Origin: Cuniculiplasma divulgatum
Lineage (GTDB): Archaea > Thermoplasmatota > Thermoplasmata > Thermoplasmatales > Thermoplasmataceae
Length of the DNA: 32,000 nt
Assembly (NCBI RefSeq): GCF_900083515.1
Contig: NZ_LT671858.1
Span: 120,001 to 152,000 of the forward strand
Direction: 5' to 3'
The notes under the pieces are model-generated. The model saw only the letters and a list, made by a program, of their open reading frames with translations, was not told the origin of the DNA and searched no databases. Below are positions 1,894 through 18,207 of this stretch, in pieces. Made by a program: the position numbers and the translations under genes. Each line of letters begins with the position of its first letter. Position 1 is the first letter of the stretch.

Positions 1894-2882
1894 TCACGAG
1901 TTTTCAATCCTTTCATTCAACCAGCTTAAAATATTATTGGGGGCTTCCTCATCAAGTATTCTATCTGAAGAATTATAGTTCAGAGAAACATACTGTGCTG
2001 ATAATTTTTCCAGAGGAAGCTCCTCATGTTTCAGCAAATGATTTGCATTCTCCGGAAAAACGAAAGAGGTGTTCATATTTTCAGAAAGCGACTTCTTTAG
2101 CATATTTCCATCATCATTCCAGCTTACCTGAATATCCTTCTTTCCAATCAGCACCATTATGGGATCCTTAACTATACTGATGTGATCACCAAGATTGTAT
2201 GCCCAAAATTCCCTAGAAAATGGTAAATTTATGGGTGTTTCTAAGCTGGAAATTAGTTGTTTCATTAGCAATGGCAGATCATCATTTACTGTAACAGGTT
2301 TCTCTGAGATAAATTCCCTTATGGCAAGATCATATGCTTTCATAATTGTATCTGCATTTGGCAGTTTTCCAAACTGTGACAAAAGCTGGCTTCTGGCAAC
2401 ATCTCCAACAGATCTTCCATGTGGACCTGTAAGAATGAAACCCCTGAAATTTTTTCAAAATTCCCAAGCTGGTAATTAACCGCATGTATGGCACCTTCAC
2501 TGTTTGTTAGAGCGAATATAAGGTCCATGTTAACTCCATCCTCCCCGGAAAGTTTTTCAAAAGCACCATGTAATTCATCTGCAAAATATTGCATATTTAC
2601 CCTGCCTGCAAACTTCTGAATATTCTCCTTTGCATGTACACCAGAACCGGCCTTATCGTATCTTAGGGTTACAAATCCATTTTCAGCCAGTCTTTCTGCA
2701 ATTAACCTTCCACTTCCATTAGATCCTGGAAGAAGCGGAGAGCACCAGTCCCTATCAGTAGATCCGCTGCCTGCCAGAAGGATCACAGCGGGAAGATTCT
2801 CTCCTGCGACTGGTCTGGTAATGGTCCCATAGATATCAATATCATGAACCCTCCACTGAACTTCCTTACTCTGTATCTCCAT
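1894..2882 (-). pseudogene. Alpha/beta-fold hydrolase broken by a single frameshift in a homopolymer run
   Basis: ORF 2340..2882 carries the N-terminal half (AVILLAGSGSTDRDW, nucleophile elbow LTNSEGA). ORF 1894..2382 carries the C-terminal half (LIGKKDIQV Asp strand, NANHLLKHEE His). The second frame reads back as GFILTGPHGRSVGDVARSQLL up to a TGA that lies inside the run GAAAAAAT (T6 at 2450..2455 on the + strand). Adding one A fuses the two halves in frame. Confidence 0.7.
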
Positions 2883-4717: not shown

Positions 4718-6358
4718 ATGAAATTACAAAACGGTTCGGATGGCATATATCTCCTGTATGAAAATTATGAAGCCATGAAGAAGGAAAGTCTCCATGGTAC
4801 AATCTATACTCTGAAGCCACTTTATGAATGCAGACTTGAAATACACATACCCCTAATTAATATACAATTTTCATGGTTCACCACCTCTGGAAGGAGCAAT
4901 GGGCTTGAACCAGACTGGAACGGAGAAGTGAAGATAAGGCCAAACATTAACATTCCAGTCATTTCATTCTATAATCAAAAAGGGAAAAACTCATGCACTG
5001 TAGCAATATCAGACTGCCTCAACCCCATTAATATATCCTATGGAGTAAGTGAAGAGGATAAAGAAATCATAATAAAAATAAAAAGAAAATCACAGGATTC
5101 TTTCAGCGTTCTCCTGAGCACATCAGGGGAAGAGATTACAGACGTCATATTTTCCGCATCCTCATGGGTTAGTTCATTTTATCCAAAGCCTGTTATCCCT
5201 AATGAATCGGAATCCATAGTATATTCAACATGGTACTCCATGCACCAGAATGTTAGTCAGGAAGCCGTGGAGCAAGAAGCTAAGTTAGCAAAAAAAATTG
5301 GGTTTGAATCTGTATTTCTAGATGATGGATGGCAGACATCGGACAACAGAAGAGGGTATAAATATACAGGTGACTGGGAATTCGACAGGTCAAAATTTCC
5401 AGATCCTGTAGGTCATGTAAAAAGGATACACCAATTAAATTTAAATTACGTAGTCTGGATTGCACTTCCATTCATTGGCAAGGAATCAAAAATATTCAAT
5501 AAATTTAATAAGAAACTGCTGAGAGTCAATGAAGGATGGGGCACAGGCATAGTGGACCCTTTAGATCAGGAAACGACAGATTATATTAAAGAAAGGGTAA
5601 ATTATCTTGTAAAACTGGGTTTTGACGGTCTAAAGGTTGATTTTATAGACTCAATAATAGATCCTGATGACAGGGATGATGTTTACAGGAAAATACCAGA
5701 GTTTCTGAGAGAGACACTGGGTCCAGCCAATGGGAAGTTAATAGAGTTCAGGCAGAGATACATCTCTCCCATAATGCTGCAATATTGCAATATGATAAGA
5801 TCTGCAGATTGTCCAGGGGATCATATAGAAAACAGGATCAGATCCTTAAGCACAAGACTGATATCCGGTATAGTTCCGGTACACAGTGATCCACTTATGT
5901 GGAACAGTGAAGACTCAATGGAAAACATATCCTTTGCATTTATAAACGTGCTATTTACGGTACCACAGATATCTGTAATGCTGAAAGAACAGAAGAGTGA
6001 AAATCTGGAAGTTTTGAGAAAATGGATAGAATTCTGGAAGGAACACAGATTAACTTTACTCCATGGAAAGATAAGTGTTAAACATATGGAATTGAATTTC
6101 CCTACCGTCTCTTCAATAATAAACAATCAAAAGATCACTGTTTGTTATTCACCAATTCCAGTTAATGTGGATGGAAAGGAAGAAATCATAATTAATTCAT
6201 CCGGTAGTAATTTACTGCTTGAAAGCGAAACTGAGGCTGTATACACAGTTAAGGACTGCAATTTCCAGGAAGTTGGAAAAGGAAGGCTTTCGACAGGTTT
6301 AAATCGCATATCAACTCCATTTTGCGGTCAGATTTATATTGAAACCTCAAAGATTTAA
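4718..6358 (+). CDS. Glycoside hydrolase, alpha-galactosidase-like (clan GH-D / GH36-like TIM barrel)
   Basis: 546-aa ORF with FESVFLDDGWQ...YTGDWEFDRSKFPD followed by LGFDGLKVDFID. This resembles the DDGW and K-x-D catalytic regions of melibiase-type enzymes. Family assignment is by motif resemblance only. Confidence 0.5.
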   Translation: MKLQNGSDGIYLLYENYEAMKKESLHGTIYTLKPLYECRLEIHIPLINIQFSWFTTSGRSNGLEPDWNGEVKIRPNINIPVISFYNQKGKNSCTVAISDCLNPINISYGVSEEDKEIIIKIKRKSQDSFSVLLSTSGEEITDVIFSASSWVSSFYPKPVIPNESESIVYSTWYSMHQNVSQEAVEQEAKLAKKIGFESVFLDDGWQTSDNRRGYKYTGDWEFDRSKFPDPVGHVKRIHQLNLNYVVWIALPFIGKESKIFNKFNKKLLRVNEGWGTGIVDPLDQETTDYIKERVNYLVKLGFDGLKVDFIDSIIDPDDRDDVYRKIPEFLRETLGPANGKLIEFRQRYISPIMLQYCNMIRSADCPGDHIENRIRSLSTRLISGIVPVHSDPLMWNSEDSMENISFAFINVLFTVPQISVMLKEQKSENLEVLRKWIEFWKEHRLTLLHGKISVKHMELNFPTVSSIINNQKITVCYSPIPVNVDGKEEIIINSSGSNLLLESETEAVYTVKDCNFQEVGKGRLSTGLNRISTPFCGQIYIETSKI

Positions 6359-15493: not shown

Positions 15494-16226
15494 AGAGGAA
15501 CTATTAAGTGTACCCTTATCATTCAACGCCTACCAGAAAGAAAAAGACTATCTTCAGCATATAATTTTATCAAGGATATATGCAAATACAGGAAACCAAT
15601 TGATTTTCAAGGGTGGTACATCTCTCCAGAAATGCTGTGGCCTAAACAGGTTCTCAGAAGATCTAGATTTTACAGTTAAAGACAAATTAAGATCCGAGAA
15701 GATAGAACTCGCCTTGGCAGAAGTTAACCGTTACTATCCATCATCTTATTCAGGTTATAAAGCAGATCATTCAATGGGGTACATAATAAAGATTCATGGA
15801 CCTTTATATAAATCCCCCATATCATTGCAGACAATACGATTAGACATTAGCATGCGTGAGAAGGTAATCCTTCCATCTGTAAACTACAACATCATTCCCA
15901 TATATAGAGATCTTATGCCTTACTTGGTCATTGCAATGGACCTGAAGGAAGTATTCTCTGAGAAGATAAGGGCACTTTTGACAAGAAAAAAAGCAAGGGA
16001 CCTTTATGATATATATTTTCTGATAAAAAGAAACATAGCGCTCGACCTTAACTTAGTAGAAGAGAAAATGAAATTTTATAACAAAGCATATGAAGGAAAA
16101 GAAGCAGTTGAGAGGATCAGAAGCCTCAAAACTCAATGGGAAAAAGAAATTCCGGCACTGGTGTTTAACCCACCTCTGTATGACACTGTCTCTTCAGAAG
16201 TAATTGAATTTCTGCTTTCCTCTTAG
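15483..16226 (+). CDS. abiEii: AbiEii/AbiGii-family nucleotidyltransferase toxin (DUF1814)
   Basis: 247 aa with the family signature LIFKGGTSLQKCCGLNRFSEDLDFT (NTase G-G-[ST] plus DxD) and the later motif KIRALLTRKKARDLYDIYFL. An SD sequence, GGAGGGT, lies 5 nt upstream of the ATG, inside the abiEi coding region. Confidence 0.85.
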   Translation: MLSREELLSVPLSFNAYQKEKDYLQHIILSRIYANTGNQLIFKGGTSLQKCCGLNRFSEDLDFTVKDKLRSEKIELALAEVNRYYPSSYSGYKADHSMGYIIKIHGPLYKSPISLQTIRLDISMREKVILPSVNYNIIPIYRDLMPYLVIAMDLKEVFSEKIRALLTRKKARDLYDIYFLIKRNIALDLNLVEEKMKFYNKAYEGKEAVERIRSLKTQWEKEIPALVFNPPLYDTVSSEVIEFLLSS

Positions 16227-17218: not shown

Positions 17219-18119
17219 TTATACGTAAGATAAAAGTAGGTCACGGTTTTCCATGAGCCATTTTCTCTTTTCTTTCCAGTTCGGCATAATTTTTTCCACC
17301 TCATTCCAGAACAACTTTCCATGGGCAGCAATTTTTGTATGAACAAGCTCATGGATGATCACGTAATCTATTACTCCAACAGGAGCCATTGCCAGTAGAA
17401 GCGTGAATCTTAATATGGTTTTGTTACTACAGCTCCCCCACGTTCTTGTTGCACTTCCTACAGAAAATGAGGAGTAATTACAGTTTATTCTGCTGGAAAA
17501 TGCATTTAATCTCTCATCAAAATAACTTTGTAATGCATTACGGTAGAAATGCTTGAAAACCTTTCTTCCTTTGTCCTTACAGTTCTCTGAAAGATTGAAA
17601 AAACCATCGAAGGATAAACATTTACTATCCTTTACTATCTTAATCTCATACTCTTTTCCAAATAGCAGATGTTTCTCCCCATCCTCAAATCTGACATTTT
17701 TCTTCATTTCTATCGCTTTGTCAAATTTTTCCTTTGTTTTTCTCATCCAACTGGCGTTTGTGTCCAGAAAAATATCAATCTGAGTGCCTGTTACCACCGT
17801 TTAAGCAGAAAGCCCACGACTTAAGTCGTGGGATGAATGCGAAACTCTTAATATGGTAGAAAGTGTATCTAATCCAGTACCGCAGGGCATGCGGGATTTG
17901 AAGCCTGATAAGCTGCCCGAAAGGGATAGTGAGAGATGGAGTAAGCCCTCTGGATCGGATGAAAGGGGCACTGTCAATGAAGCAGGAACCTCACAAGCTT
18001 TAGCTGTGGGAGGATGTCAGATGACTGGATACTCTGAGAGAAAAGGCGCCATCACTTTTTAATCTCAGAACCATGTATTTCCTTTTCCCTCTCACTTTTA
18101 TAATCTCAACATTGATCAT
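17219..18119 (-). pseudogene. DUF45 / YgjP-like (M48-related, HExxH) metallopeptidase gene interrupted by a 238-bp insertion
   Basis: The N-terminal module MINVEIIKVRGKRKYMVLRLKSDGAFSLRV runs from the ATG at 18119-18117 to codon GTA at 18032-18030 (part of ORF 18000..18197). The remainder, TGTQIDIFLDTNASWMRK...VIIHELVHTK...FW, is in ORF 17219..17797, in a different frame. Deleting 17795..18032 joins them in frame into a 220-aa protein of typical DUF45 size. Confidence 0.7.
17795..18032 (+). mobile_element. Non-autonomous IS200/IS605-like insertion (PATE/MITE-like), GC-rich and highly structured; may encode an omega/reRNA-like RNA
   Basis: About 50% GC against mid-30s % in the flanks. On the + strand it is inserted immediately 3' of TTAC (17791..17794). 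A perfect hairpin CCCACGAC-TTAA-GTCGTGGG (17813..17832) begins 18 nt inside the left end, with AAAG directly 5' of its foot. The element ends in ATAC. No target duplication is needed for in-frame restoration of the host gene. Further helices: a CCC-GAAA-GGG tetraloop hairpin at 17916..17925, a hairpin at 17880..17894, and a long-range 7-bp pairing of 17872..17878 with 18024..18030. No ORF of plausible function lies inside. Confidence 0.45.
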
Positions 18120-18207
18120 CTTATTTCCTGTATAGAGGATCGGATAATTACAGGGTAAATAGGGTTTTTCATTGCTGTTACCATAATCAACCTGCACTGG
18201 GTGAAAA

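What the first reader, a model, noticed from the sequence alone, without database searches (positions are those of the whole stretch)
17860..18050. The right two-thirds of the insertion looks like a folded RNA ending exactly at the element boundary (candidate omega/reRNA-like guide RNA)
GC content rises to about 50-55% (hand count over 17881..18000) in a genome where structural RNAs are the usual cause of GC islands. On the + strand I can pair the following. CCGCA/UGCGG forms a hairpin at 17880..17894. CCC-GAAA-GGG, a GNRA tetraloop, lies at 17916..17925; on the opposite strand the loop would be UUUC, which favours a + strand RNA. An imperfect hairpin spans 17989..18013 (CCUCACAAGC...GCUGUGGGAGG). 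A long-range 7-bp helix pairs AUCCAGU (17872..17878) with ACUGGAU (18024..18030), enclosing about 145 nt and closing 2 nt before the element end. In IS200/IS605 elements the TnpB guide RNA scaffold occupies the right end, and its guide is read from the flanking DNA. Here that flank would be tctgagagaaaaggcg. The reconstructed empty site, TTAC|tctgagag..., would then present TTAC as an adjacent TAM-like motif. A TnpB-less copy keeping such an RNA would be an orphan guide usable in trans.
Basis: inference. Interest (0 to 1): 0.75.

Follow-up and report, generated by a model that had tools for sequence, protein, structure and literature searches.

The report
Protein-less transposon carrying a guide-RNA scaffold
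The GC-rich patch is the conserved, folded RNA module of a 226-bp protein-less IS200/IS605-type mobile element inserted in a Cuniculiplasma peptidase gene. It is most likely a TnpB guide (omega) RNA that depends on a nuclease encoded elsewhere, which is a known kind of element but a family not described before.

Summary
Empty alleles in related genomes show that the insertion is window 17795..18020 (226 bp), not ..18032. The junctions are TTAC|CACCG...GATGTCAG|ATGACTGG, with no target duplication.

The element is a MITE/PATE of an IS608-like IS200/IS605 family. It has a TTAC target, AAAG just before the left hairpin, and a right-end hairpin with a UUUA loop. Its ends match a tnpB-only IS found 2 kb away in G-plasma strains.

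I recovered ten diverged copies (223-229 bp, 58-95% identical). About 75 database "hypothetical proteins" are translations of further copies.

Positions 17875..18020 fold into a conserved + strand structure: five helices and a closing helix, CUGAUA (17905-10) with UGUCAG (18015-20). In this structure 94% of cells pair, against 38-55% in slid controls, and 14 pairs carry compensatory changes. There is no codon periodicity.

A covariance model built from the copies hits the 3' ends of real tnpB genes (52-64 bits).

The guide would be ATGACTGGATACTCTG, not tctgagag....

Verdict: an orphan omega-RNA module. It is a new member of a known kind. Expression and TnpB use are untested.

The parts
17791..17794 (+). 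TTAC target site, which is also the presumed TAM, immediately 5' of the left end
   Evidence: Nine of ten copies follow TTAC and one follows TGAC. The empty alleles L002 and L003 keep TTAC directly joined to the right flank. IS608 inserts 3' of TTAC (PMC3201880).
17795..18020 (+). Complete 226-bp non-autonomous IS200/IS605-type element (MITE/PATE) with no target-site duplication
   Evidence: Boundaries come from the empty sites in L002 and L003. Removing the element restores the YgjP-like reading frame. Ten copies of 223-229 bp occur in different loci and genomes.
17809..17832 (+). Left end: AAAG (17809-12) followed by the perfect hairpin CCCACGAC-TTAA-GTCGTGGG (17813-32)
   Evidence: The region is colinear with the left ends of the tnpB ISs in L001 and L037. 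In IS608 the TTAC-recognising guide is AAAG, and guide sequences lie 5' of the hairpin foot.
17840..17854 (+). BRE/TATA-like motif CGAAAC-TCTTAATAT, the candidate promoter inherited from tnpB (inferred)
   Evidence: It sits at the same distance from the left hairpin in the MITE copies and in the tnpB ISs. About 28-30 nt downstream lies either the tnpB start codon (ISs) or helix H1 (MITEs). The promoter role is an inference.
17880..17894 (+). Helix H1: CCGCA-GGGCA-UGCGG
   Evidence: All cells pair, and 3 of the 5 pairs carry compensatory changes. The hairpin is also present, with a fully different stem, at the tnpB 3' ends of L001 and L037: GGGAA-GGGCA-UUCCC.
17905..17910 (+). 5' arm (CUGAUA) of the closing, pseudoknot-like helix that pairs with the last 6 nt of the element
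   Evidence: This pairing appears in the minimum-free-energy fold of all three copies folded alone and in the RNAalifold consensus. It is nearly invariant, so it carries no covariation. The GCCUG motif is conserved even in distant tnpB loci.
17913..17929 (+). Helix H2: CUGCCC-GAAA-GGG(A)UAG
   Evidence: Four of the 6 pairs carry compensatory changes. Stem length and loop vary between copies.
17935..17975 (+). Extended stem H3 (GAUGG 17935-39 with CUGUC 17971-75) enclosing H4 (GCCCUCU 17945-51 with AGGGGC 17964-69)
   Evidence: Cells paired are 100% for H3 and 96.7% for H4. Each helix has one- and two-sided changes.
17976..17989 (+). Conserved single-stranded motif AAUGAAGCAGGAAC
   Evidence: It is nearly invariant in the ten copies and is shared with the tnpB IS 3' ends of L001 and L037.
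17990..18013 (+). Right-end subterminal hairpin (H5) with a UUUA loop
   Evidence: Five of the 8 pairs carry compensatory changes. The same hairpin closes the tnpB ISs of L001, L009 and L037. Archaeal sotRNAs carry an RE-like UUCA/UUUA tetraloop (PMC4615843), and ISDra2 omega RNA has a UUUA tetraloop at -20..-17 (PMC10097598).
18015..18020 (+). 3' arm (UGUCAG) of the closing helix and right terminus of the element (cleavage motif TCAG)
   Evidence: All ten copies end in GTCAG.
18021..18036 (+). Flanking host DNA ATGACTGGATACTCTG, which would be read as the guide (inferred)
   Evidence: It is identical for 24 nt to the sequence following TTAC in the empty alleles L002 and L003. The guide role is inferred from the TnpB/omega RNA paradigm.
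18056..18060 (+). T5 run, a possible archaeal terminator 36-40 nt past the right end (inferred)
   Evidence: Sequence read. The terminator role is an inference only.
17219..18197 (-). YgjP-like metallopeptidase gene split by the insertion
   Evidence: Pfam PF01863 matches the downstream part with E = 3e-46. An intact 250-aa gene is present in L002 and L003. The frame is restored when the element is removed.

Best explanation
Window 17795..18020 is a 226-bp non-autonomous IS200/IS605-family element (a MITE/PATE with IS608-like ends) inserted 3' of TTAC in a YgjP-like gene of Cuniculiplasma divulgatum. It consists of three parts: a left end with the TnpA-recognised hairpin and a retained tnpB-type BRE/TATA-like motif; a structured RNA module of about 141 nt (17880..18020); and the right-end hairpin.

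The RNA module is the omega/reRNA scaffold of this TnpB clade with the tnpB ORF deleted.

Proposed mechanism (inferred):
1. The + strand is transcribed from about 17875 through the right end into the flank.
2. The last 6 nt pair with CUGAUA about 110 nt upstream. This closes a three-way junction and presents the flank (ATGACTGGATACTCTG...) as the guide.
3. A TnpB supplied in trans loads this RNA and cuts the TTAC-flanked empty site left by TnpA excision, or present on an uninserted homologue.
4. Homologous repair then restores or copies the element.

The element would thus depend on both a TnpA and a TnpB encoded elsewhere.

Shown here: the boundaries, family membership, the conserved fold, and homology to tnpB 3' ends.
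Inferred: transcription, the promoter, TnpB loading and cleavage.
For: Boundaries and transposon type:
- The empty alleles L002 and L003 give the exact junctions and show no target-site duplication.
- Nine of ten copies follow TTAC.
- AAAG precedes the left hairpin and the terminus lies 10 nt 3' of the right hairpin foot. This matches the geometry described for IS608.

Link to TnpB:
- G-plasma strains carry a tnpB-only IS 2 kb away (389 aa; OrfB_IS605 plus Cas12f1-like TNB domains). Its left and right ends match the element.
- Covariance model R1, built only from protein-less copies, aligns over its full length to the tnpB 3' ends in L001 (51.7 bits, E = 6e-12), L037 (63.6 bits) and L009 (19.2 bits).
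- The shared parts are H1, GAAUUnAnGCCUG, AUGAAnCAGGAAC, the right-end hairpin and GAUGUCAG.

Structure:
- Ten copies, 58-95% identical, were compared.
- 94.3% of cells pair, against 38-55% for slid partners. Fourteen pairs and 39 cells carry double changes. None of 500 shuffles reached the observed covariation score (a model-fitted alignment gave the same result).
- About 13% of cells are G-U, including U-G in 10/10 copies at 17909/18016. These would be A-C on the - strand, so the fold belongs to the + strand.

Not a protein:
- Divergence is equal at codon positions 1, 2 and 3 (0.23, 0.21, 0.24).
- Paired columns vary more than unpaired ones.

Architecture compared with solved omega RNA:
- ISDra2 omega RNA has a 116-nt scaffold. 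Its guide-proximal nucleotides pair with a segment about 100 nt upstream, and it has a UUUA tetraloop at -20..-17.
- Here the 5' arm lies at -116..-111 and the UUUA loop at -22..-19.

Precedent:
- PATEs "often encode omega RNAs" that are acted on in trans (Meers et al. preprint).
- Expressed intergenic ncRNAs with RE-like tetraloops exist in Halobacterium.
Against: - No expression data exist for this RNA.
- There is no Rfam match.
- Single-sequence folding is not better than that of shuffles.
- No tnpB or tnpA lies in the 32-kb window.
- The nearest identified TnpB (P0099) was found only in G-plasma-type assemblies. It was not found on the 1.94-Mb contig that holds this element's ORF. A partner in this genome is therefore unproven.
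- The middle of the scaffold (H2-H4) has no counterpart in the tnpB ISs examined. A profile search of 1.84 billion proteins found no full-length TnpB whose tail matches the translated module. Compatibility with any known TnpB is therefore uncertain.
- The closing helix is invariant, so it has no covariation support.
- Only ten sequences were used, and the shuffle control is not a probability.
Confidence: 0.75

Rival explanations
1. The conserved helices are top-strand single-stranded DNA structures needed for TnpA-mediated excision and integration, not an RNA.
For: TnpA acts on the same (top) strand and recognises subterminal hairpins. The left- and right-end hairpins, which covary, are certainly TnpA sites. 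G-T wobbles are tolerated in DNA.
Against: In the IS608 work read here, TnpA was described as requiring only the two subterminal hairpins, the guide tetranucleotides and the cleavage sites. The internal helices H1-H4 and the conserved single-stranded motifs lie where tnpB ISs encode their omega RNA. They are homologous to tnpB 3' ends. The ~49-bp mini-elements lack the whole interior yet sit after TTTAC. This suggests the interior is not needed for transposition.
Confidence: 0.07
2. The module is a decaying, functionless remnant of a tnpB 3' end left by an internal deletion.
For: It is derived from tnpB 3' sequence, and the old reading frame is still open in 9 of 10 copies. No partner TnpB is shown in this genome.
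Against: All copies share the same deletion architecture and a near-constant length of 223-229 bp. They have diverged to 58% identity while keeping 94% of pairs through compensatory changes. That pattern indicates purifying selection on structure in protein-less copies.
Confidence: 0.07
3. The RNA is real but has a job other than transposon retention. It could be an antisense or regulatory sRNA against the host gene it sits in. Or it could be a domesticated guide for a nuclease-dead TnpB-like repressor.
For: It is antisense to the YgjP-like gene. TnpB-derived RNA-guided transcription factors exist (title and abstract listed). The scaffold middle differs from that of the tnpB ISs.
Against: Copies lie in unrelated contexts, mostly intergenic. 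They are polymorphic between strains and keep transposon ends and the TTAC target. These are features of a mobile element rather than a fixed regulator.
Confidence: 0.07
4. The region encodes a small protein: the annotated 69-aa hypothetical protein CSP5_0144.
For: An ORF at 17853..18062 is annotated in public genomes. HMMER finds 45-75 similar short 'proteins'.
Against: There is no third-position excess. Start codons and C-termini differ because the ORFs run into unrelated flanks. There is a stop or a frameshift inside the module in L025 and L031. Compensatory stem changes give radical residue changes, for example ALAVGG to PSGMRG. No Pfam domain matches.
Confidence: 0.03

Closest known systems
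PATEs/MITEs of IS200/IS605 that carry omega RNAs (Geobacillus stearothermophilus ISGst-related PATEs; Meers et al. 2023, preprint 10.1101/2023.03.14.532601)
   Same: A protein-less element with IS200/IS605 left and right ends and an omega-RNA region abutting the right end. It is presumed to rely on TnpA and TnpB in trans.
   Different: This one is archaeal (Thermoplasmata). It forms its own diverged family of constant ~225-bp size. The middle domain of its scaffold was not seen in the tnpB ISs sampled. An apparent tnpB-type BRE/TATA motif is fused directly to the scaffold.
ISDra2 TnpB omega RNA/reRNA (Karvelis 2021; Nakagawa 2023, PMC10097598)
   Same: The scaffold ends at the right end and the guide comes from the flank. 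The TAM equals the transposon target site. Guide-proximal nucleotides pair with a segment about 100-115 nt upstream. The last hairpin has a UUUA tetraloop about 20 nt from the guide.
   Different: There is no detectable sequence similarity and no Rfam hit. The TAM is TTAC rather than TTGAT. No tnpB is overlapped. The closing helix here is nested, 6 bp and predicted only, whereas the ISDra2 pseudoknot is experimentally solved.
Archaeal sotRNAs of IS1341-type tnpB genes and the intergenic RE-tetraloop ncRNAs VNG_R0052/VNG_R6334 of Halobacterium salinarum (Gomes-Filho 2015, PMC4615843)
   Same: These are archaeal RNAs at or from tnpB 3' ends, with an ~8-bp stem and a UUCA/UUUA loop near the 3' end. 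Two intergenic, tnpB-less examples are expressed. A Haloarculaceae tnpB IS (L009) has the identical right-end sequence.
   Different: Those were defined by RNA-seq in a haloarchaeon and were not described as mobile MITEs. Here there is comparative structure but no expression data.
IS608 (Helicobacter pylori) end architecture
   Same: Insertion 3' of TTAC. AAAG precedes the left hairpin. The hairpin lies about 18-19 nt from the left cleavage site. The right cleavage site lies 10 nt 3' of the right hairpin foot. There is no target duplication.
   Different: The right terminus is TCAG rather than TCAA. No tnpA or tnpB is present in the element. The host is archaeal.

Membership tests
IS200/IS605-family non-autonomous element (MITE/PATE) | Subterminal imperfect palindromes at both ends and no terminal inverted repeats | tested here: met
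   The left hairpin is at 17813-32 and the right hairpin at 17990-18013. Both are conserved, with compensatory changes across copies.
IS200/IS605-family non-autonomous element (MITE/PATE) | Insertion 3' of a specific tetranucleotide without target-site duplication | tested here: met
   The empty sites in L002 and L003 read TTAC|ATGACTGG. Nine of ten copies follow TTAC.
IS200/IS605-family non-autonomous element (MITE/PATE) | Ends shared with a protein-encoding IS of the family | tested here: met
   The left and right ends match the tnpB ISs in L001, L037 and L009.
IS200/IS605-family non-autonomous element (MITE/PATE) | No protein-coding capacity | tested here: met
   The element is 226 bp. The overlapping ORF shows no codon periodicity and has variable ends.
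IS200/IS605-family non-autonomous element (MITE/PATE) | Evidence of mobility (several loci, presence/absence polymorphism) | tested here: met
   Ten copies lie in different contexts. The same locus is filled in some strains and empty in others.
IS200/IS605-family non-autonomous element (MITE/PATE) | A cognate Y1 transposase (TnpA) available in trans | not tested
   No tnpA was seen in the window or in the loci fetched. The rest of the genome could not be scanned.
TnpB omega RNA / reRNA | Encoded at the 3' end of the element, ending at the right end on the tnpB-sense (top) strand | tested here: met
   The module spans 17875-18020 and ends at the right terminus. G-U pairs fix the strand as +.
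TnpB omega RNA / reRNA | Homologous to the tnpB 3' end or downstream region of TnpB-encoding relatives | tested here: met
   R1 aligns over its full length to L001 6622-6753 (51.7 bits), L037 1685-1814 (63.6 bits) and L009 (19.2 bits). The middle domain is not shared.
TnpB omega RNA / reRNA | Conserved secondary structure supported by covariation | tested here: met
   94% of cells pair and 14 pairs carry double changes, against slid controls with at most 6. Only ten sequences were used and no R-scape test was run.
TnpB omega RNA / reRNA | Guide-adjacent nucleotides pair with a distal 5' segment (pseudoknot core) | tested here: inconclusive
   The CUGAUA/UGUCAG pairing is predicted in every copy. 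It is invariant, so there is no covariation. Only CUG/CAG can pair in the tnpB ISs.
TnpB omega RNA / reRNA | TAM next to the guide-matching target equals the transposon target motif | tested here: met
   The empty alleles read TTAC plus 24 nt identical to the right flank.
TnpB omega RNA / reRNA | Transcribed and bound by a TnpB that then cleaves guide-matching DNA | not testable with these tools
   No transcriptome or biochemical data were available. TnpB P0099 is present 2 kb away in G-plasma strains only.
Any Rfam family | Match at the gathering threshold | tested here: not met
   There were no hits in the window. The best sub-threshold hit was an unrelated hairpin match to the left end.

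The most novel reading that the evidence does not exclude
This ~225-bp element family may be an independently evolving "guide-RNA gene on wheels". It would be a promoter plus omega scaffold that has diversified across Thermoplasmata and other archaea as a hyperparasite of both TnpA and TnpB.

Two observations fit this reading. The scaffold's middle domain (H2-H4) is found in no sequenced tnpB IS. The terminal hairpins swap to match whichever local IS lineage is present.

If so, orphan omega RNAs would compete with the IS's own RNA for TnpB. They could spread by RNA-guided homing between strains whose empty alleles match the guide.
Probability: 0.3. Interest if true: 0.6.

Novelty: new member of a known kind. 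Interest (0 to 1): 0.4.

Why it matters
This case shows selection on the guide-RNA fold in elements that encode no protein at all. That is indirect but clear evidence that omega RNAs are used in trans in archaea.

It supplies a ready test case:
- a 146-nt scaffold;
- a TTAC TAM;
- a natural 24-nt target present in sister strains;
- a candidate TnpB from the same species.

It also flags dozens of database "hypothetical proteins" (for example CSP5_0144) as mis-annotated RNA elements. And it provides a covariance model for an omega-RNA family absent from Rfam.

Tried and rejected
- **Rfam.** Searches at gathering and permissive thresholds gave nothing relevant.
- **Repeats in the window.** No second copy was found.
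- **Single-sequence folding.** Both strands were uninformative.
- **Exact right-end pattern scans.** These gave only 5 genome loci and 1 metagenome locus. The metagenome hit was the same G-plasma locus.
- **tnpB parent with the same tail.**
  - The word-index protein search with the translated module found only MITE ORFs.
  - The full HMMER scan of 1.84 billion representatives returned 45 hits, all short and none a TnpB.
  - The idea that the element is a simple internal-deletion derivative of the neighbouring L001 IS was therefore rejected, because the scaffold middles differ.
- **Viral contigs.** These gave only TnpBs at about 32% identity, with marginal model hits.
- **Intron.** I considered an intron in the YgjP gene. 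I rejected it because the element has transposon ends and a TTAC target, is antisense to the gene, and occurs in unrelated loci.
Rejected as chance.
- **Protein-coding reading.** Rejected.
Full report
**What is at the locus**

The window has 37.6% GC. Positions 17881..18000 are 53.3% GC.

The GC-rich patch lies inside an insertion that splits a YgjP-like metallopeptidase gene on the - strand (PF01863, E = 3e-46). Removing the insertion restores one open frame.

I looked up the neighbouring ArsR-like protein in public assemblies. This returned the same neighbourhood in three states:
- L002 and L003 have an intact 250-aa gene.
- L001 and L004 have the identical insertion plus a tnpB gene 2 kb away.
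- The window has the insertion but not that tnpB.

Aligning the empty alleles gives exact junctions...CCTGTTAC|ATGACTGGATACTCTGAGAG.... The element is therefore window 17795..18020, 226 bp, with no target duplication.

The organism is Cuniculiplasma divulgatum / "G-plasma". The ORF over the element is annotated as CSP5_0144 (SIM33004.1) and EQB69345.1.

**What kind of element it is**

The element is preceded by TTAC. It carries AAAG followed directly by a perfect hairpin, 18 nt inside the left end (17809-17832). An imperfect hairpin with a UUUA loop ends 10 nt before the right terminus. The terminus reads ...GATGTCAG.

IS608 shares several of these features:
- insertion 3' of TTAC;
- an AAAG guide, with guide sequences lying 5' of the hairpin foot;
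- cleavage 10 nt 3' of the right hairpin foot;
- a donor joint that keeps TTAC (PMC3201880).

The tnpB-only IS in L001 encodes a 389-aa protein with the HTH_OrfB_IS605, OrfB_IS605 and Cas12f1-like TNB domains. Its left end (TTTAAGCAGAAAGCCCATGTCTTAAGTCATGGGATGAATG) and right end (CTTTAGCTGTGGGATGATGTCAG) are nearly the same as those of the element. A Haloarculaceae tnpB IS (L009) ends with the identical right end.

The 226-bp element is therefore a MITE/PATE of an IS608-like, tnpB-carrying IS200/IS605 lineage. No tnpA or tnpB is present in the 32-kb window.

**A family, not a one-off**

Exact-pattern scans found a second full copy (L007) and two ~49-bp mini versions (L006, L008).

I translated the module in the old tnpB frame and searched 1.84 billion protein representatives. 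This returned 45 hits, all short (47-191 aa) and none of TnpB length. A profile search of the 5.8-billion set gave 75 hits, again all 39-104 aa.

These "proteins" are translations of further copies. They read from the left-end hairpin (SKKAPTFREEMNC) to the right terminus (GCQ = GGATGTCAG).

Fetching DNA for some of them gave ten distinct copies:
- They are 223-229 bp long and 58-95% identical.
- They sit in unrelated contexts.
- Nine follow TTAC and one follows TGAC.
- All end in GTCAG.

**The structure**

I compared the ten copies over window 17875-18020 using a MAFFT alignment that was not fitted to any structure. The following fold is kept:
- H1: 17880-84 with 17890-94.
- Closing helix: CUGAUA (17905-10) with the last six nucleotides, UGUCAG (18015-20).
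- H2: 17913-18 with 17923-29.
- H3: 17935-39 with 17971-75, enclosing H4.
- H4: 17945-51 with 17964-69.
- A conserved single strand: AAUGAAGCAGGAAC (17976-89).
- H5, the right-end hairpin: 17990-18010.

The support is as follows:

| Measure | Observed | Control |
|---|---|---|
| Cells that pair | 94.3% | 38-55% when 3' partners are slid by 1-3 columns |
| Pairs with compensatory double changes | 14 (39 cells) | at most 6 pairs (11 cells) in slid controls |
| Shuffles reaching the covariation score | 0 of 500 | n/a |

An alignment fitted to the model gives the same picture.

H1, H2 and H5 carry most of the covariation. H3 and H4 carry less. The closing helix is invariant, so it is predicted but not supported by covariation. 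It does appear in the minimum-free-energy fold of each copy folded alone.

About 13% of paired cells are G-U. One example is U-G in 10/10 copies at 17909/18016. The fold therefore works only on the + strand.

Divergence is flat across codon positions (0.23, 0.21, 0.24). Paired columns vary more than unpaired ones (0.28 against 0.18). L025 has a stop and L031 a frameshift inside the module. The annotated 69-aa ORF is therefore not a gene.

Single-sequence folding energies are unremarkable, and Rfam has no matching family.

**Link to TnpB guide RNA**

I built covariance model R1 from the protein-less copies only. It aligns over its whole length to the 3' ends of real tnpB genes:
- L001 6622-6753: 51.7 bits, E = 6e-12.
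- L037 1685-1814: 63.6 bits.
- L009: 19.2 bits.
- Marginal hits lie right after distant viral tnpBs (L013, L014).

The shared parts are:
- H1, with a fully different stem (GGGAA-GGGCA-UUCCC);
- the motif GAAUUnAnGCCUG, which encodes the conserved PEFTPVE of the TnpB tails;
- AUGAAnCAGGAAC;
- the right-end hairpin;
- GAUGUCAG.

The middle (H2-H4) is specific to the MITE family.

The left parts are colinear too. In both ISs and MITEs a BRE/TATA-like motif follows the left hairpin at the same distance. About 28-30 nt further on lies either the tnpB start codon (ISs) or H1 (MITEs). The MITE therefore looks like the tnpB promoter fused to the omega scaffold. This is an inference.

The geometry resembles the solved ISDra2 omega RNA. 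That RNA has a 116-nt scaffold. Its nucleotides just 5' of the guide pair with a segment about 100 nt upstream to form the pseudoknot, and it has a UUUA tetraloop at -20..-17 (PMC10097598). Here the distal arm lies at -116..-111 and the UUUA loop at -22..-19.

**Mechanism proposed**

The steps below are inferred:
1. Transcription of the + strand starts at about 17875, runs through the right end into the flank, and may stop at the T5 run (18056-60).
2. The scaffold folds.
3. The flank ATGACTGGATACTCTG... serves as the guide.
4. A TnpB made elsewhere binds the RNA and cuts TTAC-flanked empty sites.
5. Homologous repair restores or spreads the element.

The natural empty alleles L002 and L003 match the guide for 24 nt next to TTAC. 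A real target therefore exists in the population.

Meers et al. already state that PATEs often encode omega RNAs that must be acted on in trans. Gomes-Filho et al. found expressed intergenic RNAs with RE-like tetraloops in Halobacterium.

**Weak points**

- There are no expression data.
- The closest TnpB (P0099) is single-site. It was found only in G-plasma-type assemblies, not on the 1.94-Mb contig that carries this element's ORF.
- The scaffold middle has no tnpB-linked counterpart, so the partner nuclease is unknown.

Correct:
- the GC island;
- the three local hairpins;
- TTAC;
- + strand;
- the omega-RNA idea.

Wrong:
- the right boundary;
- the guide;
- the closing helix. Its 3' arm is host DNA. 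A 7-mer complement arises in about 10% of shuffled flanks, and it is absent from the nine other copies;
- the GNRA argument, because the loop is not conserved.

**Verdict**

This is a real, conserved omega-RNA-type module in an archaeal protein-less IS200/IS605 element. It is a new member of a known kind and of moderate interest.

Noticed in passing
window 15674-15924 compared with L001 6600-7915 (also L004, L010, L035, L036): In G-plasma-type strains the tnpB IS sits between TTTAC (window 15669-73) and sequence that in the window follows a second TTAC (15920-23). About 250 bp of the AbiEii toxin gene is missing. This is consistent with recombination between two IS copies inserted at the two TTAC sites, or with an IS-associated deletion.
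   Followed up: partly
L006 about 5429-5477 (+); L008 about 1975-2023 (-): These are ~49-bp mini-elements lying after TTTAC. The left-end start (GATCCTCTAAGCAGAAAGCCCAC) is fused directly to the right-end hairpin and GATGTCAG, with the whole RNA module absent.
   Followed up: no
L031 2926-2970: A solo left-end-like sequence (AAATAAAGTAGCAAGAAAGCTCAGATCTTCATAGAGGAG) abuts the right terminus of a full copy with no TTAC between them. It looks like an RE-LE junction or a tandem remnant.
   Followed up: partly
L028 2462-2686 compared with L030 9962-10186: Two near-identical copies share the same left flank but have different right flanks. This suggests a rearrangement or recombination at the element.
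   Followed up: no
L028/L030/L032/L033 and L037; window/L007 and L001: The terminal hairpins of MITE subfamilies match those of different local tnpB IS lineages, while the internal scaffold stays MITE-specific. The ends therefore appear to track the available IS partner.
   Followed up: partly
window 17853-18062 (+): The 69-aa ORF over the element is annotated in public genomes as a hypothetical protein (CSP5_0144 / SIM33004.1, EQB69345.1). About 75 similar database entries are likewise translations of MITE copies.
   Followed up: yes
L011 2116-2119: One copy is flanked by TGAC instead of TTAC.
   Followed up: no
L037 248-363 (-): There is a second, weaker match to the RNA model (19.5 bits) on the opposite strand, about 240 nt upstream of the tnpB gene start (601). 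It is possibly a decayed right-end/omega remnant.
   Followed up: no
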